64,000 nt of DNA, from positions 16,259-80,258 of the forward strand of contig JAFURZ010000005.1 in the NCBI GenBank assembly GCA_017480785.1, read 5' to 3'. Of this stretch, positions 5,326 to 35,106 are shown in pieces (positions within the stretch are counted from its first letter, which is position 1; each line of letters starts with the position of its first letter). Under the pieces are notes generated by a model. That model searched no databases, was not told the origin of the DNA, and saw only the letters and a program-made list of their open reading frames with translations. Origin of the DNA: Bacteroidales bacterium (GTDB taxonomy: Bacteria; Bacteroidota; Bacteroidia; Bacteroidales; P3). A program made the position numbers and the translations under genes.

Positions 5326-6243
5326 ATGAAACAGATACAGAAAGCCGCCGAGCTTCAAGCGGCAGTAAGTGAAGCCAAAGCCAAGGGCCTGCAGATAGGC
5401 CTTGTGCCCACCATGGGCGCCCTGCACGAGGGCCACCTCTCGCTCATCGAGCGCGCCCTGAAGGAGAACGACCTCGTCGTGGTCTCCCTCTTCGTCAACC
5501 CCATCCAGTTCAACAACAGGGAGGACCTGGAGAAGTATCCCCGCACCATCGAGGCCGACCTGGAGCTAATCGAAGGGCTCATAGCTCACGCCGATTGCCG
5601 TGCCAAGGAGCTGTTGGCGTTCACGCCGACAGTCGACGAGATGTACCCCGACGGGGAGCCGACGGAGATTGTCTACCACTTCGGGCCCGTCGAGGAGGTG
5701 ATGGAAGGGCCGCGGCGTCCGGGCCACTTCAACGGGGTGGCCGTCGTGGTGCGCCGCCTGTTCGACCTCAGCCAGCCCACCCGCGCCTACTTCGGCGAGA
5801 AGGACTACCAGCAGATTGCCGTCATCCGCGCCCTGCTAGAGCAGATGCTACCCACTACCCACTACCCACTACCCACTCTCGTTCCCTGCCCCATCGTGCG
5901 TGCCGACGACGGCCTGGCCCTGAGCAGCCGCAACAAGCGCCTCACCCCCGCCGCCCGCCAGATGGCCCCCGCCATCAACGCCACCCTCGAGCAGGCCGCC
6001 GAGATGGCCGAGTACGAGGAGGTGGACGACGTCAAGGAGTGGGTGCTCGACACGCTGGCGTCGTGGCACGAGGTGAATGAGTGCGGCGAGGGCCTGAGGT
6101 TCGAGCCTGAATACTTCGAGATTGTCGACGCCATCACCCTCCAGCCCATCGCCGACTGGACGGATGCCGACGAGCACGGCGCAGTGGGCTGCATCGCCGT
6201 ATGGCTCGACGGCGTCCGCCTGATCGACATAGTTAAGTTTTAA
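5326..6243 (+). CDS. panC: Pantoate--beta-alanine ligase
   Basis: 305-aa ORF with PanC motifs GLVPTMGALHEGHLSLI, YFGEKDYQQ and DGLALSSRN. Carries an in-frame TACCCAC x4 array. Confidence 0.95.
   Translation: MKQIQKAAELQAAVSEAKAKGLQIGLVPTMGALHEGHLSLIERALKENDLVVVSLFVNPIQFNNREDLEKYPRTIEADLELIEGLIAHADCRAKELLAFTPTVDEMYPDGEPTEIVYHFGPVEEVMEGPRRPGHFNGVAVVVRRLFDLSQPTRAYFGEKDYQQIAVIRALLEQMLPTTHYPLPTLVPCPIVRADDGLALSSRNKRLTPAARQMAPAINATLEQAAEMAEYEEVDDVKEWVLDTLASWHEVNECGEGLRFEPEYFEIVDAITLQPIADWTDADEHGAVGCIAVWLDGVRLIDIVKF
5849..5876 (+). repeat. TACCCAC x4 heptamer array inside panC
   Basis: Four perfect 7-nt units read in frame as LPTTHYPLPT. Confidence 0.9.
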
Positions 6244-18048: not shown

Positions 18049-19671
18049 CTACAGCAGGTCGAGCGAGTAGTGCAGACCGACGTTCTGCCGGCGGGCACGG
18101 GCCATCTTGATGATGAGATAGGCGCAGGCGATGAGGTTGCGCAGCTCGCTGAGGGGCTCGGTGAGCACGGAGCGGTTGTAGAGGTCCTCGGTCTCGCGGA
18201 AGATGAGGTTCAGACGGTCGAAGGCGCGCTGCAGGCGCAGGTCGCTGCGCACAATGCCGACATAGTTCCACATGATTTCCTGCAGCTCCTTCTTGGTCTG
18301 CGTGATGAGCACCATCTCCTCGTTGAGCACCATGCCCTCGGCGTTCCAGTCGGGCACTTTTGAGTGGGTAGTGGATAGTGGATAGTGGGTAGCATTTGAC
18401 CCTGTGCTCCCCACTACACACTCCCCACTACACACTTGCGCTATAGCCGACATGGCTGCGTTGTGGGCATAGACCACGGCCTCGAGCAGCGAATTGGAGG
18501 CCAGGCGGTTGCCGCCATGCAGACCCGTGCAGCTGCACTCGCCGGCGGCATAGAGGTTGAGGATGGACGATTGCCCGTTGCGGTCCACCTTGATGCCGCC
18601 GCACTGGTAGTGGGCTGCCGGCCGGATGGGTATCATGTCGCGCGTGATGTCGATGCCGATGGAGAGGCATTTGGCATAGATGGTGGGGAAGCCCTCGATG
18701 AGGTGCTTCTTGCCGATGCCGCGGGCGTCGAGGTAGAGGTAGTCCTTGCCGCTGAGTTTCATCTCGTTGTCGATGGCACGGGCCACAATGTCGCGCGGGG
18801 CGAGACTCAGGCGCTCGTCGTACTTCTGCATGAACTCCTTCCCGTCGCGGTCTTTCAGCACGGCGCCGGCGCCGCGCATGGCCTCGGTGATGAGGAAGGC
18901 GGGCTTCTCGGCGGGGTTGTAGAGCGAGGTGGGGTGGAACTGCATGAACTCCAGGTCGCTCAGCACGCCGCGGGCGCGGTGCACCATGGCCACCCCGTCG
19001 CCGGTCGAGATGACGGGCGTGGTGGTGGTGCTGTACACGTTGCCCATGCCGCCGGTGGCCAGCAGGGTGACGCGGGCCAGGTAGGTGTCGATGCGGTTGG
19101 TGTCACAGTCCAAAGCATAGACGCCGTAGCACTCGATGCCCGGCGTGTGCTTGGTGACGCGCTGGCCCAGATGGTGCTGGGTGATGATGTCGATGGCGAA
19201 CTGGCGTTCCTTGAGCTCGATGTTGGGATGCCGGCGCACGGCCTCGAGCAGGCCGCGCTCTATCTCCTCGCCTGTGTTGTCCTTGTGGTGCAGGATGCGG
19301 AACTCCGAGTGGCCGCCCTCGCGGTGCAGGTCGAAGCGGTCGCCGCCTTTCCCCTCGGCGGGGACGCGGTCGAAGTTGACCCCGTACTGCACCAGCTCGC
19401 GGATACGGTCAGGAGCCTCGCGGATGGTCATCTCCACCACCTCGCGGTCACAGATGCCGTCGCCGGCCACCAGGGTGTCCTGTATGTGCTTGTCGAACGA
19501 GTCGCTGTCGTACATCACCGCAGCGATACCCCCTTGGGCGTAGCGCGTGCTTCCCTCGCTGGCATCGCCTTTGGTCAGGATGCACACCCGGCCGTAGGGA
19601 GCCACCTTCAGGGCGAAACTAAGGCCCGCTATACCCGAGCCAACAACCAAGAAATCAACTTCGTAGCGCAT
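18049..19671 (-). CDS. nadB: L-aspartate oxidase
   Basis: ORF 18049..19758 trimmed to ATG 19671 (MRYEVDFLVVGSGIAGL FAD motif), downstream of TAtaTTTG (19695-19702, minus). Also RYAQGGIAAV. Carries an in-frame heptamer hairpin. Confidence 0.95.
   Translation of the reverse strand: MRYEVDFLVVGSGIAGLSFALKVAPYGRVCILTKGDASEGSTRYAQGGIAAVMYDSDSFDKHIQDTLVAGDGICDREVVEMTIREAPDRIRELVQYGVNFDRVPAEGKGGDRFDLHREGGHSEFRILHHKDNTGEEIERGLLEAVRRHPNIELKERQFAIDIITQHHLGQRVTKHTPGIECYGVYALDCDTNRIDTYLARVTLLATGGMGNVYSTTTTPVISTGDGVAMVHRARGVLSDLEFMQFHPTSLYNPAEKPAFLITEAMRGAGAVLKDRDGKEFMQKYDERLSLAPRDIVARAIDNEMKLSGKDYLYLDARGIGKKHLIEGFPTIYAKCLSIGIDITRDMIPIRPAAHYQCGGIKVDRNGQSSILNLYAAGECSCTGLHGGNRLASNSLLEAVVYAHNAAMSAIAQVCSGECVVGSTGSNATHYPLSTTHSKVPDWNAEGMVLNEEMVLITQTKKELQEIMWNYVGIVRSDLRLQRAFDRLNLIFRETEDLYNRSVLTEPLSELRNLIACAYLIIKMARARRQNVGLHYSLDLL
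18364..18435. repeat. GTGG(G/A)TA x4 array plus CTCCCCACTACACA x2 opposing arm inside nadB
   Basis: Left arm 18364-18393, right arm 18409-18435. Read in frame (minus) as ..VCSGECVVGSTGSNATHYPLSTTHS.. Confidence 0.85.
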
Positions 19672-31412: not shown

Positions 31413-34130
31413 ATGAAAAAGATGAAAAAAGGTCTGTTGCTGCTTGTCGCGGCCCTGTCGATAGCCACTGGCGCCCAGGCGCAGAAGAGCATCGCCCAGA
31501 AGGCCGACGACCTGTTCGACCAAAACCGCTTCGTGGAGGCCCTGGACCAATACACCAAGGCCTACGAGCGCATCAAGGACAACAAAGCCGAGAAGAACCG
31601 CCTCTACTTCCAGATGGCCGAGTGCTACCGGCTGATGTACGACTATCCCCGCGCCGAGCGCATATACAAGCGGTTGGCCAACGAAGGCTATGCCAACACC
31701 GAGCGCAAACTGTACTTCAACCTGGCGGAGATGTGCCGCTTCGAGGAGAAATTCGAGGAAGCCGACGAATACTACGGCAAGTATCTCGAGATGGAGCCGT
31801 CGGACAGCTATGCCGCCAAGCGGCGGGCCTCACTGCTGTATGCCAACCAGCTGTCAATCAACCGTACGCGCCACGAGATTGCGAAGATGGAAGAGTGGAG
31901 CAGCGACTACAACGACTGGGCGCCCCGCTTCGTCGGCGAGGACACCACCAAGCTGATATTCACCACCTCGCGCTTCGCCGAGGGCGAAGGACAGGGGGCC
32001 GACCCGTGGACCAACCAGGCTTTCTCCGACCTCTACCAGGTGTTTCAGGACCGCAACGGCCGCTGGACGAGCACTCCCGAACCCTTCGACAAGAGCGGCA
32101 AGATAAACACGATGGTCAATGAAGGCGAGCCCTGCTTCTCACCCGACGGCAACACCATCTACTTCACCCGCTGCGACGTGCGCGAGAAGGAGACCCTCGG
32201 CTGCCGCATCTACACCGCCTCGCGCGCCGTGGCGGCACCGGAGAAAAAGAAGAAGAAAACACCCGCCAAGAAGACCCAGACGGCCAAGGGCAAGAAGGGT
32301 GCATCCAACGACAAGCAGGCGGCCGCCAACGAGACGCCCGACGGTGAATGGAGCGAGCCCGTCATGCTGGTGCTGGGCGACTCGGCCTACAACTACCTCT
32401 ACCCCGCCGTGAGCAGCGACGGGCTGACGCTGTACTTCAGCAGCGACATGCCGGGCGGCTTCGGCGAGTACGACCTGTGGAAAGCCACCCGCAAGAGCAC
32501 TGCCGACGACTTCGGCCGCGCCGTCAACCTGAGTTCCATCGTGAACACCCCGGGCCGCGAGGTGATGCCGCTGCTGCGCACCGACTCGCTGCTCTACTTC
32601 TCGTCCGACGGTCATCCCGGCGTGGGCGGCCAGGACCTCTTCGTCACGCGCCTGCAGCGCAACGGCAAGTTCGATGTGCCCCAGAACATGGGGGTGCCCA
32701 TCAACTCGTCGTACGATGAGATGTCGATTGTGTTCTATCCCGTGGTGGGCGCCGGAAGCAACCTGCTGGAGCGCGGCTACTTCTCGTCGAACCGCCCCTT
32801 TGCCGACCCGCACAACAAGAACATCGCCAACCAGAACAAGAGCAAAACGGCCCCCATCAACGACGACCTCTACTACTTCGAATTGCCGGGGCTGAACTAC
32901 TCCATCGAAGGCATCGTGCGCGACGAGAAGTCGATGCAGCTGATGCAGGACGTGCGCGTGCGCCTCGTCGGCTCGGACGGCACCGAGAAGGAGGTGCGCA
33001 CCGACAAGCGGGGCTTCTACAAGTTCGACAGCACTGTGGTGCACCGCGACGTCATCTACAAACTCTACCTCTCGAAGAAGAACTACTACAGCATCGAGGG
33101 CTCGGAGAGCACCAAGGGATACAACAATAACAAATACATCAAGCACGACTTCCGCATGGACCCCGTGCCGCGCACACCGGTGGTGCTGCCCGAGATACGC
33201 TTCGACCTGGCCCGTACCGAGCTCAAGGGCGAGTTCATGGACTCGCTGATGGACCTGCTCATCGTCATGGAGAACAACCCCGGCCTGGTGGTGGAGATAC
33301 GCTCGCACACCGACTGCCAGCCCTATGTGGGCCTGACCAACGACACCCTCTCGCAACGCCGTGCACAGACAGTGGTCGACTACCTGGCCAACCGCGGCAT
33401 CGAGCGTGAACGGCTGGTAGCCAAGGGCTATGCCGACCGCGTGCCGCGCGTGCTCGACGAGGACATGACCGTCGTGCTCAACGGCAAGCCCTACACCTTC
33501 CTGAAAGGCACCGTGATGGATTGCGACTACATAGCCACCCTCAGCGGCGACCGGCAGCAGGCGGCCCACTCGCTCAACCGGCGCATTGAGTTCCTCGTGC
33601 TGCGTGACGACTACGTGTCGCGCCGCGAGATAGACAACATGACGCATCCCACCGACGGCAAGGTGGTCAACCTGGTCGACAACGAGCTGGAAGACCTCGA
33701 CCGCATCCAGCAACCCACCATCATACACGACGAGACCACCATCCCCGTCACCATGATTAACGCCACCCGTGGCGAAATCAACTGCATCATCAACAGCGCC
33801 CAGCAGATGCCCATGCTCATCGACGAGCGCTACCCCGAACCCATCGCCATCGCCTGGGAGGAGGCCATGAACCTGCTCTACCAGCAGCGCATCACCAAGG
33901 AGGACTTCCCGCTGCGCGACGAGAGTTTCGACCCCGAGGGCAACATCGTGGACCGTGCCACCTTGGTGTTCAAGGAGATGCAGATTGGCGAGCAGCGGCA
34001 GCGCAACGTCGAGGTGGTGGTGATGAAAGGCATCGACTACAAGTTCATCATCAACCGCACGGGTCTGCGCCAGTTTGGCGAGTATGAATTCGACAAGCAG
34101 CGCGCCAAGCTCATTTTCTTTGATGAGTAA
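31413..34130 (+). CDS. OmpA-family protein with PorE-like domain order (TPR, PD40 propeller, CarboxypepD_reg, OmpA_C) plus C-terminal extension
   Basis: 905-aa ORF with a signal peptide. PD40-like repeats (CFSPDGNTIYFTR, PAVSSDGLTLYFSSD, LYFSSDGHPGVGGQDLF), IEGIVRDEKSMQLMQDVRVRLVGSDG, and OmpA_C VVEIRSHTDCQPYVGLTNDTLSQRRAQTVVDYL. The PorE assignment is inference. Confidence 0.75.
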   Translation: MKKMKKGLLLLVAALSIATGAQAQKSIAQKADDLFDQNRFVEALDQYTKAYERIKDNKAEKNRLYFQMAECYRLMYDYPRAERIYKRLANEGYANTERKLYFNLAEMCRFEEKFEEADEYYGKYLEMEPSDSYAAKRRASLLYANQLSINRTRHEIAKMEEWSSDYNDWAPRFVGEDTTKLIFTTSRFAEGEGQGADPWTNQAFSDLYQVFQDRNGRWTSTPEPFDKSGKINTMVNEGEPCFSPDGNTIYFTRCDVREKETLGCRIYTASRAVAAPEKKKKKTPAKKTQTAKGKKGASNDKQAAANETPDGEWSEPVMLVLGDSAYNYLYPAVSSDGLTLYFSSDMPGGFGEYDLWKATRKSTADDFGRAVNLSSIVNTPGREVMPLLRTDSLLYFSSDGHPGVGGQDLFVTRLQRNGKFDVPQNMGVPINSSYDEMSIVFYPVVGAGSNLLERGYFSSNRPFADPHNKNIANQNKSKTAPINDDLYYFELPGLNYSIEGIVRDEKSMQLMQDVRVRLVGSDGTEKEVRTDKRGFYKFDSTVVHRDVIYKLYLSKKNYYSIEGSESTKGYNNNKYIKHDFRMDPVPRTPVVLPEIRFDLARTELKGEFMDSLMDLLIVMENNPGLVVEIRSHTDCQPYVGLTNDTLSQRRAQTVVDYLANRGIERERLVAKGYADRVPRVLDEDMTVVLNGKPYTFLKGTVMDCDYIATLSGDRQQAAHSLNRRIEFLVLRDDYVSRREIDNMTHPTDGKVVNLVDNELEDLDRIQQPTIIHDETTIPVTMINATRGEINCIINSAQQMPMLIDERYPEPIAIAWEEAMNLLYQQRITKEDFPLRDESFDPEGNIVDRATLVFKEMQIGEQRQRNVEVVVMKGIDYKFIINRTGLRQFGEYEFDKQRAKLIFFDE

Positions 34131-34134
34131 CACA

Positions 34135-34203
34135 GTGGATAGTGGGCAGTGGGTAGTGGGTAGCACACGTGGTCAGCAGCTACCCACTACCCACTACCCA
34201 CTA
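34135..34203. repeat. GTGGGTA x4 / TACCCAC x3 hairpin between the PorE-like stop and the miaA core
   Basis: gtgggtagtgggtagc (34149-34164) pairs perfectly with gctacccactacccac (34179-34194). Confidence 0.9.
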
Positions 34204-35106
34204 ATAACTATTCTAGGGCCCACGGCGACCGGCAAGACGGCCCTGGCGGCCGAGGTGGCCTACCGGCTGAACGGCGAGATAATCAGCGCCGACTCGCGTC
34301 AGGTGTTCCGCGGCATGGACCTCGGCACCGGCAAGGACCTGGCCGACTACGACCTGCACGGCGTCCACGTGCCCCACCACCTGATTGACATCTGCGACCC
34401 GCGCGAAGAATACTCCGCCTACCGTTTTGTGAACGACTTCCGGCGGGCCTACGAGGACATCACCGCCCGCCACCGGCAGCCCATACTCTGCGGCGGCACG
34501 GGTCTCTACCTTGACGCCATCCTGCGGGAGTACCACCTCAGCGACGCCCCCGTCAACCCCGCTTACCGCGCCTCGCTCGAGTCCTACAGCGACGAGGAGC
34601 TCACCGAACGGCTGGCCTCCTACGGCCCACTGCACAACCACACCGACACCGAGACCCGCGAACGGCTGCTGCGGGCACTGGAGATTGCCGAGTATGCCCG
34701 CCTCCACCCCGACCGCTATGCCCGTCTGCCCGAGATGGAGCACCGCGTGTTCGGCATGGCGCTGGAGCGCCAGCAGGTAATCGACCGCATCGGGCGGCGC
34801 CTGCGGCGCCGCCTCGACGAAGGCATGACCGCCGAGGTGCAGCGACTGTTGGACGAAGGCATCCCCGCCGAACGCCTGATGCGCTTCGGGCTGGAATACC
34901 GCCACGTGACCCGCTATCTGCTGGGCCAATGCACCGAGGAGGAGATGTTCCGCGACCTCTTCACCGACATACGCCGCTTCGCCAAGCGCCAGATGACCTG
35001 GTTCCGCCGCATGGAGCGCAACGGCGTGGCCATCCGCTGGCTCGATGCCTCACGCCCCGTGTCCGAGCTGGCCGACGAGGTGGCCAACGGCTCATATCAC
35101 CAATAG
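34156..35106 (+). CDS. miaA: tRNA dimethylallyltransferase
   Basis: ORF 34075..35106 overlaps the upstream gene. The conserved core begins ILGPTATGKTALA, followed by SADSRQVFRGMDLGTGK. There is no ATG; the nearest in-frame start, GTG 34156, lies inside a hairpin repeat, so the 5' end is uncertain. Confidence 0.85.
   Translation: MGSTRGQQLPTTHYPLITILGPTATGKTALAAEVAYRLNGEIISADSRQVFRGMDLGTGKDLADYDLHGVHVPHHLIDICDPREEYSAYRFVNDFRRAYEDITARHRQPILCGGTGLYLDAILREYHLSDAPVNPAYRASLESYSDEELTERLASYGPLHNHTDTETRERLLRALEIAEYARLHPDRYARLPEMEHRVFGMALERQQVIDRIGRRLRRRLDEGMTAEVQRLLDEGIPAERLMRFGLEYRHVTRYLLGQCTEEEMFRDLFTDIRRFAKRQMTWFRRMERNGVAIRWLDASRPVSELADEVANGSYHQ

What the first reader, a model, noticed from the sequence alone, without database searches (positions are those of the whole stretch)
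34131..34216. The miaA 5' end is embedded in a perfect heptamer hairpin that starts right after the upstream stop codon
The PorE-like gene stops at 34130. From 34135 to 34203 a GTGGGTA x4 / TACCCAC x3 element can form a perfect 16-bp stem (34149-34164 with 34179-34194). The first conserved MiaA residues (ILGPTATGKT) begin at 34210. There is no ATG. The only plausible in-frame starts are GTG 34156, inside the left arm, or ATA/ATT at 34204/34210. So either the repeat supplies the start codon and N-terminus, or translation initiation must occur within a strong hairpin. That could couple miaA expression to the upstream gene or to structure melting.
Basis: partly seen in the sequence, partly recalled or inferred. 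Interest (0 to 1): 0.6.

Follow-up and report, generated by a model that had tools for sequence, protein, structure and literature searches.

The report
Translated hairpin repeat inserted in miaA
The hairpin at the start of miaA is one copy of a short palindromic repeat that has inserted, in frame, into about two dozen housekeeping genes of this uncultured rumen bacterium.

Summary
The hairpin is real. Window 34135-34201 has 25-nt arms that are 96% complementary, with RNA dG -51.6 kcal/mol and z -5.

The "no ATG" puzzle is a reading error. An in-frame ATG at 34123 overlaps the upstream stop (GATGAGTAA). The closest relatives use the same start (MSNT|LITILGPTATGKT).

The hairpin is an exact 66-nt, 22-codon insertion between miaA codons 4 and 5. 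A strain whose flanks are 92-96% identical has the empty site (MSNP|LITILG, 305 aa against 327 aa).

It belongs to a genome-wide family: (GTGGGTA)x4, an ~18-nt loop, then (TACCCAC)x4. Twenty-two full copies lie inside housekeeping genes such as LeuRS, ValRS, IleRS, UvrA, RadA, NadB and TruA. Each carries the substitution that removes the one in-frame TAG.

The family looks like an internally deleted derivative of a cassette in the same genome. That cassette is a PF05635 (23S-rRNA-IVS-type) four-helix-bundle gene bounded by the same inverted heptamer arrays.

AlphaFold2 predicts the 22 extra residues as a disordered N-terminal tail ahead of beta-1 and the P-loop. The calculated cost of opening the start region is the same with and without the insert.

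Verdict: a translated, selfish insertion like the Rickettsia palindromic elements, not a purpose-built regulator. The start/stop overlap with the upstream gene is ancestral and independent of the hairpin.

The parts
31413..34130 (+). PorE-like outer-membrane gene (905 aa); stop TAA at 34128-34130
   Evidence: ORF. Pfam hits TPR, PD40, CarboxypepD_reg and OmpA. The same gene sits upstream of miaA in relatives.
34123..34125 (+). miaA start codon ATG, overlapping the upstream gene's last codons (GATGAGTAA)
   Evidence: It is in frame and stop-free to 35104. The same overlapping ATG gives N-terminus MSNT/MSNA/MSNP in L001-L003 and L145. The exact 327-aa product from this ATG is in the protein collection; products from GTG 34135, GTG 34156, ATG 34084 and TTG 34075 are not.
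34123..35106 (+). miaA (tRNA dimethylallyltransferase), 327 aa including a 22-aa insert at residues 5-26
   Evidence: Pfam IPPT PF01715, E 3.4e-57, residues 60-296. Solved MiaA structures align from query residue 26-28. The AF2 model has mean pLDDT 83.5.
34135..34200 (+). 66-nt in-frame insertion: a heptamer-array palindromic element encoding VDSGQWVVGSTRGQQLPTTHYP. Against the empty allele the boundaries can slide to 34130-34195 or 34132-34197 because of a 2-nt AC microhomology.
   Evidence: Alignment of filled and empty alleles. Relatives have MSNT|LITILG. 327 aa against 305 aa.
34135..34162 (+). G-type arm: GTGGATA GTGGGCA GTGGGTA GTGGGTA. The T-to-C change at the second junction (GGG CAG TGG) removes the only in-frame TAG.
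   Evidence: Sequence; frame analysis. This arm is identical to the G arm of the copy in the GH2 gene at C4:310539.
34163..34180 (+). GC-clamped loop GCACACGTGGTCAGCAGC
   Evidence: It has the same orientation and consensus (GCA..CG.GGTCA...GC) as the loops of the other ORF copies.
34181..34201 (+). C-type arm TACCCAC x3. The last unit is completed by sequence that is also present at the empty site (ACCCACT).
34201..34239 (+). Conserved MiaA beta-1 and P-loop (LITILGPTATGKT)
   Evidence: Alignment A1 gives invariant G32, T34, A35, G37, K38, T39. The AF2 model has a strand at residues 27-31.
18364..18435 (-). Sister copy of the same element, in frame in nadB (QVCSGECVVGSTGSNATHYPLSTTHSK)
   Evidence: The insert is shared by many relatives at 90% identity or more.
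5849..5876 (+). Half copy (TACCCAC x4) in frame in panC (LPTTHYPLPT)

Best explanation
The hairpin is one copy of a lineage-specific, dispersed, roughly 75-nt palindromic element. Its structure is four AGTGGGT-type heptamers, an ~18-nt GC-clamped loop, and four ACCCACT heptamers. In miaA it sits in frame between codons 4 and 5.

miaA is translated from the ancestral ATG at 34123, which overlaps the stop codon of the PorE-like gene. The ribosome reads through the element and adds 22 residues (VDSGQWVVGSTRGQQLPTTHYP). These form a disordered N-terminal tail in front of beta-1 and the P-loop.

The element looks like a non-autonomous, internally deleted derivative of a cassette in the same genome. 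That cassette is a PF05635 four-helix-bundle (23S-rRNA-IVS-type) gene bounded by the same inverted heptamer arrays. This makes the hairpin MITE-like or foldback-like.

Copies that survive inside genes descend from 'coding-competent' variants in which the single in-frame TAG of the G-type arm is replaced by CAG or GAG.

Shown:
- the insertion and its boundaries;
- the conserved start;
- the empty allele;
- the family and its genic, in-frame distribution;
- the similarity between the cassette's inner ends and the hairpin loops.

Inferred:
- actual translation of the insert;
- mobility, and the agent that mobilises it;
- neutrality for MiaA function.

Any effect on expression is a by-product, not a designed regulator. 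Possible effects are an extra unwinding cost from codon 5 onward, or a roughly 25-bp duplex that RNase III could cut.
For: 1. Start and insertion.
- L001-L003 read tttGATGAGTAA and MSNT/MSNA + LITILGPTATGKT.
- The window reads MSNT + 22 aa + LITILG.
- L145/L146 are 96% and 92% identical in the flanks and lack exactly 66 nt.
- Gene callers recorded the 327-aa product from ATG 34123 on 8-9 contigs.

2. Family.
- The 21-nt core occurs 76 times in this 2.25-Mb genome. It occurs in 12 of 37 genomes of the genus and in 0 of 24 genomes from other families.
- 22 full hairpins lie in through-reading ORFs of NrdD, LeuRS, ValRS, IleRS, UvrA, UvrC, RadA, RarA, TruA, DapF, TrmB, NadB, PyrC, RdgB, TolC, GH2, alpha-2-macroglobulin and MiaA.
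- All eight guessed gene products that include the insert exist in the protein collection.

3. Selection for an open frame.
- A perfect element is closed in all six frames.
- Every genic copy has at least one arm mismatch, always including loss of the TAG at the second junction.
- The cassette and the copy at C1:56436 keep perfect G arms.
- Shared diagnostic substitutions across copies (GTGGATA-GTGGGGA-GTGTGTA-GTGGATA, or GGGCAG) indicate descent from ORF-adapted source copies.

4. Persistence in frame.
- The NadB insert is shared across many relatives at 90% identity or more.
- The RadA insert is shared with G026 in a diverged form.
- TrmB relatives have no insert or a remnant PPTTHPT.

5. 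Parent cassette.
- C8:168137-168643 reads GTGGGTA x4, then a PF05635 gene (E 4.6e-38), then TACCCAC x4.
- The hairpin loop GCACTTGCCGAGAATGC equals the left inner end GCACATGACC plus the right inner end CGAGAATGC.
- The ATTTCTA family shows the same relation to its own cassette.
- Five PF05635 genes in this genome each have inverted arrays of a different heptamer.

6. Tolerance.
- In the AF2 model, residues 1-22 have pLDDT below 50 and the rest of the protein is confident.
- Solved MiaA structures have 4-12 residues before beta-1.

7. No sequestration of the start.
- Opening energy is 11.5 kcal/mol with the insert and 11.9 without it.
Against: - There is no direct evidence of translation.
- 22 of 24 full copies are genic. 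That is more than a random-insertion-plus-selection model allows even if every in-frame insertion were tolerated (expected share 0.56 or less at about 88.5% coding density; P about 2e-4). Something about targeting or retention is therefore unexplained.
- The net size of the canonical insertion (75 nt against a 74- or 76-nt palindrome) and any target duplication are unresolved.
- PF05635 proteins are not known transposases.
- The empty allele carries a perfect ACCCACT unit at the site. So the direction of the event in that lineage (insertion into a unit-like target, or in-frame loss leaving a footprint) is undecided.
- A regulatory side effect of a -45 to -52 kcal/mol hairpin starting at +13 cannot be excluded.
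Confidence: 0.85

Rival explanations
1. Dedicated translational regulator. The hairpin evolved, or is maintained, to gate miaA initiation. It would act as a structure-melting or thermosensor-like switch, or enforce coupling to translation of the PorE-like gene.
For: - The hairpin is very stable (-51.6 kcal/mol) and starts only 12 nt after the ATG.
- If the 30S footprint is taken as -20..+20, the opening cost rises from 15.9 to 21.4 kcal/mol with the insert.
- The start/stop overlap makes coupling plausible.
Against: - The same element sits in the middle of at least 21 other genes, where it cannot gate initiation.
- All 80 related miaA loci, and a strain 92-96% identical, lack it yet keep the ATGAGTAA overlap.
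- The -18..+13 and -12..+16 opening energies are unchanged by the insert.
- There is no U-tract terminator and no Rfam family above threshold.
Confidence: 0.07
2. The element is untranslated. miaA would start after or inside the hairpin (GTG 34156 or ATA/ATT 34204/34210), making the repeat 5'-UTR or intergenic DNA.
For: - The insert lies very near the 5' end, so a downstream start would lose only 4 conserved-position residues.
- GTG codons exist in frame at 34135 and 34156.
Against: - The insert is exactly 66 nt and stop-free in the miaA frame, with the in-frame TAG specifically replaced by CAG.
- The ancestral ATG and its four codons are retained intact.
- An ATA or ATT start would be unprecedented here.
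- There is no room for a promoter or leader between the upstream stop and 34156.
- All other family members are unambiguously internal to ORFs.
Confidence: 0.04
3. The insert is removed or skipped: RNA-level excision of the hairpin, or ribosomal bypassing (gene-60-like), so the mature protein lacks the 22 residues.
For: - The two flanks are brought together by a 25-bp stem.
- The over-representation of genic copies would be easier to explain if the inserts were phenotypically silent.
Against: - Removal would not require a length that is a multiple of 3, or an open frame. Yet all 22 genic copies are open and have lost the in-frame TAG.
- Old copies (NadB, RadA, TrmB) decay as in-frame coding sequence.
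- There are no matched take-off and landing codons with a stop, as in known bypass sites.
Confidence: 0.03
4. Contingency (phase-variation) locus. Slippage by one 7-nt unit would shift the miaA frame and switch the gene off and on.
For: - Tandem units of 7 nt (not a multiple of 3) lie inside an ORF close to the start.
- Arrays of up to 9 units occur in other ORFs (C11:53054).
Against: - There are only 3-4 units per arm.
- The filled allele in another record is 100% identical, with no unit-number variant seen.
- The same arrays sit in essential aminoacyl-tRNA synthetases, where switching off would be lethal.
Confidence: 0.02
5. Assembly or binning artefact that places a repeat at the miaA 5' end.
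For: The genome is a 19-contig MAG, and repeats can mislead assemblers.
Against: - The identical 327-aa product is recorded on 8-9 contigs of up to 134 kb.
- The insertion is exactly in frame.
- Sister copies are in frame in MAGs of other species from other studies.
Confidence: 0.01

Closest known systems
Rickettsia palindromic elements (RPE; Ogata et al. 2000/2002, as summarised in PMC3733652 and PMC10969869)
   Same: - Both are short dispersed palindromic repeats found inserted in frame inside protein-coding, often housekeeping, genes.
- Both are apparently translated as extra peptide segments without destroying the host protein.
- Both are lineage-restricted, with presence/absence polymorphism between close relatives.
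   Different: - There is no sequence relationship.
- The host here is a free-living rumen Bacteroidales, not an obligate intracellular alpha-proteobacterium.
- The arms here are tandem arrays of a 7-nt unit.
- A candidate parent cassette (a PF05635 gene between the same arrays) is present.
- The genic share (22 of 24) is higher than I recall for RPE-1 (from memory, roughly 19 of 44 copies in ORFs).
MITEs and eukaryotic foldback (FB-type) elements, whose inverted termini are built of tandem short repeats (FB architecture recalled from memory)
   Same: - It is small and non-coding, with inverted termini.
- The loop is made of the two inner ends of a longer coding cassette carrying the same termini.
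- There are multiple copies per genome.
   Different: - The longer cassette encodes a four-helix-bundle PF05635 protein, not a recognised transposase.
- No clear target-site duplication was found. There is only an invariant A...T flank, and a 2-nt AC at the miaA site.
- The copies are mostly inside ORFs rather than intergenic.
23S rRNA intervening sequences carrying a PF05635 (IVP) ORF between inverted repeats
   Same: The parent cassettes here encode PF05635 proteins flanked by inverted repeats that could form a long stem.
   Different: - They are not located in rRNA genes.
- The inverted repeats are heptamer arrays.
- The miaA copy has no ORF of its own and sits in an mRNA coding region.
- RNase III processing was not tested.
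REP elements with RAYT (Y1) transposases, including REPs found inside genes (PMC3733652)
   Same: - Both are palindromic repeats.
- The unit contains GTAG.
- PMC3733652 reports REPs inside ORFs and REP termini that supply TAG stops.
   Different: - The three Y1_Tnp genes of this genome are flanked by other palindromes (CCCCGTAGGGGCG and CCGTGGG..CCCACGG types), not by heptamer arrays.
- The arms here are 28-nt tandem arrays rather than single 20-40-bp palindromes.

Membership tests
RPE-like in-frame protein-coding palindromes (functional class) | Dispersed, repeated palindromic DNA element | tested here: met
   There are 76 core matches in the genome and 24 full hairpins. Arms are 96% complementary.
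RPE-like in-frame protein-coding palindromes (functional class) | Inserted in frame in bona fide genes, with uninterrupted orthologues elsewhere | tested here: met
   - miaA filled against empty alleles.
- DapF and TruA orthologues without it.
- TrmB cluster members without it.
RPE-like in-frame protein-coding palindromes (functional class) | Insert is translated and tolerated in the folded protein | tested here: inconclusive
   The open frame is conserved. AF2 places the insert as a disordered N-terminal tail. No proteomic or expression data were available.
Rickettsia RPE families (homology) | Sequence similarity to RPE-1 to RPE-8 consensus | not tested
   No RPE consensus was on hand. The different phylum and the heptamer-array arms make homology unlikely.
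MITE | Terminal inverted repeats and no coding capacity; under 300 bp | tested here: met
   28-nt inverted arrays; total 67-76 nt.
MITE | Derivation from a longer element with the same termini | tested here: met
   The C8:168137-168643 cassette has the same arrays, and the hairpin loops equal its two inner ends. The ATTTCTA family shows the same relation.
MITE | Parent encodes a transposase; target-site duplication | tested here: not met
   The parent ORF is PF05635/bAvd-like. The flanks show an invariant A...T and no duplication. The miaA junctions share only AC.
REP/RAYT system | Cognate Y1 (RAYT) gene flanked by the same repeat | tested here: not met
   Three PF01797 genes are present but flanked by other palindromes. 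There are no period-7 arrays within 1.5 kb.
5' regulatory hairpin / attenuator / intrinsic terminator | Structure sequesters the start region, or is followed by a U-tract | tested here: not met
   The opening energy of -18..+13 is unchanged (11.5 against 11.9 kcal/mol). No terminator-like site was found. There was no Rfam hit above gathering score.
MiaA (tRNA dimethylallyltransferase, IPPT) | IPPT domain with the N-terminal P-loop GPTxxGKT/S | tested here: met
   PF01715 E 3.4e-57. Invariant G32, T34, A35, G37, K38, T39. PDB MiaA hits at E 7.7e-49.
Phase-variable simple-sequence contingency locus | Unit-number variation between or within strains that toggles the frame | tested here: inconclusive
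   Only two states were seen (full insert, no insert), and both are in frame. Read-level data were unavailable.

The most novel reading that the evidence does not exclude
PF05635 (23S-rRNA-IVS-type, Avd-like) four-helix-bundle genes bounded by inverted arrays of a cassette-specific heptamer may be an undescribed class of bacterial mobile element in Bacteroidales. Each protein would recognise its own heptamer. The cassettes would spawn foldback-type hairpin derivatives, and some derivative lineages have become 'coding-competent' and preferentially persist, or even target, inside ORFs in frame. On this reading the miaA hairpin is a recent such event. The ACCCACT unit at the empty site would then be either its homology-guided target or an excision footprint.
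Probability: 0.3. Interest if true: 0.85.

Novelty: new variant of a known kind. Interest (0 to 1): 0.55.

Why it matters
For annotation, miaA here has a normal start and a 22-residue repeat-derived N-terminal tail. No exotic initiation mechanism is needed.

More broadly, in-frame 'protein-coding palindromes' were thought to be essentially a Rickettsia peculiarity. Here a free-living gut anaerobe carries them in about two dozen essential genes, with filled, empty and decayed states visible among close relatives. That gives a natural experiment on how proteins tolerate random 25-residue insertions and how selfish DNA adapts to reading frames.

The link to PF05635 cassettes with unit-specific heptamer arrays offers a testable function for a very common but unexplained protein family.

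Tried and rejected
- Rfam scan of 33500-34800 at E<=1. It gave only sub-threshold animal miRNA-precursor hits (21-28 bits against gathering scores of 50-197), which is generic hairpin noise.
- Terminator and promoter scan. There is no terminator-like site at the hairpin. One promoter-like site lies inside miaA at 34385 and is irrelevant.
- RAYT/REP hypothesis, prompted by the GTAG in the unit and by PMC3733652. The genome has three Y1_Tnp genes, but they are flanked by other REPs.
- Viral carriers. AGTGGGT arrays occur in 18 IMG/VR contigs, but no PF05635 gene lies in the fetched stretches and no link to this genus was seen.
- A Monte-Carlo null model using open-frame proxies for genic and intergenic DNA was uninformative, because GC-rich shadow ORFs inflate the 'open' fraction. 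I replaced it with a greedy longest-ORF coding-density estimate.
- Literature searches for heptamer arrays around PF05635 genes, or for in-frame palindromes in Bacteroidetes, found nothing specific.
- Alignment of orthologous TruA and DapF loops did not give clean insertion boundaries, because those loops are remodelled in every species.
Full report
**Observation**

- The PorE-like ORF (31413-34130; Pfam TPR, PD40, CarboxypepD_reg, OmpA) stops with TAA at 34128-34130.
- It is followed by GTGGATA GTGGGCA GTGGGTA GTGGGTA (34135-34162).
- Next comes the GC-clamped loop GCACACGTGGTCAGCAGC.
- Then TACCCAC x3 (34181-34201).
- Then CTA ATA ACT ATT CTA GGG CCC ACG..., which reads LITILGPT.

The repeat finder gives 25-nt arms that are 96% complementary. 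The RNA fold of 34121-34230 is -51.6 kcal/mol, against -33.8 +/- 3.6 for shuffles, with z -4.99. So the hairpin is real and far beyond chance.

One statement is wrong. There is an ATG. ATG 34123-34125 is in the miaA frame and nothing interrupts the frame up to the stop at 35104-35106. It was missed because it lies inside the last codons of the upstream gene...TTT GAT GAG TAA is read in the miaA frame as ATG AGT AAC.

**Where miaA starts**

I fetched 80 related miaA loci. The three closest are UBA3630 (82% protein identity), RUG061 (78%) and RGIG6831 (76%).
- All three have the same tttGATGAGTAA junction.
- Their N-terminus is MSNT or MSNA, followed directly by LITILGPTATGKT.
- More distant relatives also start 4-5 codons before LITILG.

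The window reads MSNT + VDSGQWVVGSTRGQQLPTTHYP + LITILGPTATGKT. The hairpin is therefore an exact 22-codon insertion between codons 4 and 5 of a gene that keeps its ancestral start.

None of the 80 loci has a heptamer array within 3 kb.

The exact 327-aa product from ATG 34123 is on record on 8-9 contigs. Products from GTG 34135, GTG 34156, ATG 34084 or TTG 34075 are not.

Its 90%-identity cluster is represented by a 305-aa protein, MSNPLITILGPTATGKT.... The contigs that encode it come from a bioreactor metagenome. They are 96% (upstream) and 92% (downstream) identical to the window and lack exactly 66 nt, with a 2-nt AC microhomology at the junctions. This is the empty-site allele.

The empty site reads TA-ACCCACT-CATC, which contains one perfect unit of the repeat. 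The more distant relatives have ACG CTC or ACC CTG there. That unit is therefore either a unit-like target or the footprint of an in-frame loss. I cannot decide which.

**The element is a genome-wide family**

The window is C14:16259-80258 of a 2.25-Mb, 19-contig, 57.5% GC MAG.

The motif recurs in the window in panC (5849-5876, read as LPTTHYPLPT) and in nadB on the minus strand (18364-18435).

Genome-wide, the 21-nt core with up to 1 mismatch matches 76 times. A structured search finds 24 full hairpins. The typical form is 28 + 18 + 28 = 74 nt, always flanked by A...T.

Twenty-two of the 24 lie inside long through-reading ORFs. From their sequences these are:
- anaerobic ribonucleotide reductase;
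- LeuRS, ValRS and IleRS;
- UvrA, UvrC, a UvrD-like helicase, RadA and RarA;
- TruA, TrmB, DapF, NadB, dihydroorotase and RdgB;
- a TolC-like protein, a GH2 beta-galactosidase, an OmpA-family protein, a radical-SAM protein, alpha-2-macroglobulin and MiaA.

The encoded consensus is V[DG]SGECVV[DG]S[ST]RGQxLPTTHYPLPT (25 aa).

Eight gene products that I reconstructed with the insert included are all present, letter for letter, in the protein collection.

**Evidence that the inserts are read as codons**

A perfect element is closed in all six frames. (GTGGGTA)n puts TAG in three successive phases, and each strand carries one G-type arm.

Every genic copy has at least one arm mismatch (1-6 of 28). 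This always includes loss of the TAG at the second unit junction, which becomes GAG ('GEC' subfamily) or CAG ('GQW' subfamily, to which the miaA copy belongs).

The cassette described below, and the copy at C1:56436 that is open in no frame, keep perfect G arms.

The same-phase, same-arm pattern is a logical consequence of needing an open frame. It is not independent evidence. Two things are independent:
- Many copies in unrelated genes share the same set of extra substitutions (GTGGATA-GTGGGGA-GTGTGTA-GTGGATA). These changes were therefore present in the source copy. A second phase that could be opened by one mutation is never used.
- The loop has the same orientation relative to the host gene in all genic copies. 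The opposite orientation puts TGA in frame (AGC ACT TGA).

The miaA G arm is identical (28/28) to that of the GH2 copy at C4:310539, and their loops match at 14 of 18 positions.

Older copies behave as coding sequence.
- The NadB insert is shared, with a few amino-acid changes, by dozens of relatives at 90% identity or more.
- The RadA insert is shared with another species (G026) in a diverged form.
- TrmB relatives have no insert or a remnant ...VPPTTHPT....

The orthologous TruA and DapF loops of other species carry inserts derived from other repeats. These are permissive surface loops that have been colonised repeatedly.

**Origin**

At C8:168137-168643 a perfect (GTGGGTA)x4 and a perfect (TACCCAC)x4 bracket a 121-aa gene. 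That gene is PF05635 (23S_rRNA_IVP, E 4.6e-38, with a weaker bAvd-like hit). It lies between a lipoprotein-like gene and nadD.

The loop of the hairpin at C8:31303 is GCACTTGCCGAGAATGC. This equals the cassette's left inner end (GCACATGACC) joined to its right inner end (CGAGAATGC).

The genome has four more PF05635 genes found by tblastn (seven Pfam matches in all). Each is bracketed by inverted arrays of a different heptamer: AGTGAAT, GGTTTAC, CGTTATC and ATTTCTA. For the ATTTCTA family the hairpin loops are again the two inner ends of its own cassette.

The genome holds 292 period-7 arrays. GC-rich families are mostly genic: ACCCACT 13 of 15 inverted pairs, AAAGTGG 6 of 6. The AT-rich, stop-containing family AAATTAG is 0 of 5.

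PF05635 genes occur in 38 of 41 related Bacteroidales genomes, at 1-18 matches each. At least 7 of 30 fetched loci show clear inverted heptamer arrays of yet other units.

I infer that the miaA hairpin is an internally deleted (MITE-like, foldback-like) derivative of such a cassette. What mobilises it is unknown. The three Y1 (RAYT-like) transposase genes of the genome are flanked by unrelated REPs.

**Consequences for miaA**

AlphaFold2 was run on a 40-sequence alignment. It gives a confident MiaA fold (mean pLDDT 83.5, pTM 0.80). Residues 1-22 are below pLDDT 50 and strand beta-1 is at residues 27-31.

Solved MiaA structures align from query residue 26-28 to their residues 5-13. The insert is therefore a floppy N-terminal extension of a kind the fold tolerates.

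The ensemble energy needed to open the initiation region is the same in filled and empty alleles: 11.5 against 11.9 kcal/mol for -18..+13, and 10.6 against 11.1 for -12..+16. Only a footprint reaching +20 feels the stem (21.4 against 15.9).

The hairpin is a self-contained module that an elongating ribosome must unwind from codon 5 onward.

The ATGAGTAA overlap, which plausibly couples miaA to the upstream gene, is present in relatives without the hairpin.

No terminator-like site was found and no Rfam match above gathering score.

A roughly 25-bp duplex with one mismatch could be an RNase III substrate. This is an inference by analogy with rRNA IVS stems and was not tested.

**What remains unexplained**

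Coding density is about 88.5% (crude greedy-ORF estimate). Only one of six frame/orientation combinations is viable. On that basis, at most about 56% of surviving copies should be genic, even if every in-frame insertion were harmless.

The observed share is 22 of 24 (binomial P about 2e-4). So there is some target preference, or differential loss of intergenic (perfect-palindrome) copies.

The unit-like sequence at the empty miaA site hints at homology-guided insertion or at excision footprints.

**Comparison and verdict**

Functionally this is the Rickettsia-palindromic-element phenomenon: in-frame, apparently translated palindromes in housekeeping genes (PMC3733652, PMC10969869). It differs in three ways:
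- the phylum is different and the host is free-living;
- the arms are tandem heptamer arrays;
- a candidate parent cassette encoding a PF05635 protein is present.

I found no description of this in the literature held. Earlier notes of this scan on the same genome reached the RPE-like reading for purL, ribD, nadB and panC. A note on another genome linked a four-helix-bundle gene to AGTGGNN arrays.

The interesting part is the element family.

Noticed in passing
G000 C8:168137-168643 (outside the window); also C1:58745-59260, C11:53580-54075, C4:165620-166090, C7:115815-116300: Five PF05635 (23S rRNA IVS-type four-helix-bundle) genes are each bracketed by inverted tandem arrays of a different heptamer: GTGGGTA, AGTGAAT, GGTTTAC, CGTTATC and ATTTCTA. 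In two of two families checked, hairpin loops equal the two inner ends of the cognate cassette.
   Followed up: partly
L117, L123, L130, L134, L135, L138 and others (PF05635 loci of related Bacteroidales genomes): PF05635 genes in other genera and families of the order are also flanked by inverted period-7 arrays with yet other units (for example AGTGGCC/CCACTGA, AAGTGAC/CTTGTCA, TAAGGTT/TAAACCT). About half of the 30 loci have a period-7 array within 300 nt.
   Followed up: partly
G000 C7:18000-19500 (uvrA), C7:59000-59360 (radA), C17 alpha-2-macroglobulin ORF: A second in-frame repeat peptide, (S)LTPGPSPNGEG(G/R), occurs four times in UvrA and once each in RadA and alpha-2-macroglobulin. A TruA orthologue (L093) has it in the same loop that holds the heptamer element in G000. 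It probably comes from another palindromic (CCCCTCTCC...GGAGAGGGG-type) repeat family.
   Followed up: no
L145:1495-1520 (empty miaA allele): The empty site reads TAACCCACTCATC and so contains a perfect ACCCACT unit, giving Pro4 instead of the Thr4 or Ala4 of other relatives. It is either an excision footprint or a unit-like insertion target.
   Followed up: partly
L092-L102 (truA) and L104-L114 (dapF) of same-genus genomes: The loops that carry the element in G000 TruA and DapF carry different repeat-derived inserts in other species. Examples are SVLGEQCLVF...NTKHLTLNT in L096, NSELGIRNSE in L095 and ENSENSE in L112. The same permissive loops are colonised repeatedly.
   Followed up: partly
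G000 C11:53054-53116: Nine perfect TACCCAC units (63 nt) lie in frame in a 504-aa ORF, read as (LPTTHYP)x3. They sit about 0.5 kb upstream of a PF05635 cassette that has GGTTTAC arrays.
   Followed up: no
G000 C9:770-894: The RarA gene carries a composite copy with one G-type arm and two loop-plus-C-arm modules (125 nt), read in frame as KVGSGQWVVGSTEGHMNKVGSGQWVVGSTEGQMLPTTHYPLPT.
   Followed up: no
L148-L165 (IMG/VR viral contigs): Long AGTGGGT/AGTGGAT heptamer arrays occur in 18 viral contigs from diverse samples. No PF05635 gene was found in the fetched stretches.
   Followed up: partly
G000 C14:7456-7797, C2:14087-14431, C11:50999-51328: Three Y1_Tnp (RAYT-like) genes are flanked by classical REP-type palindromes (CCCCGTAGGGGCG and CCGTGGGTGCAAACCCACGG). 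This is a separate REP/RAYT system in the same genome.
   Followed up: partly
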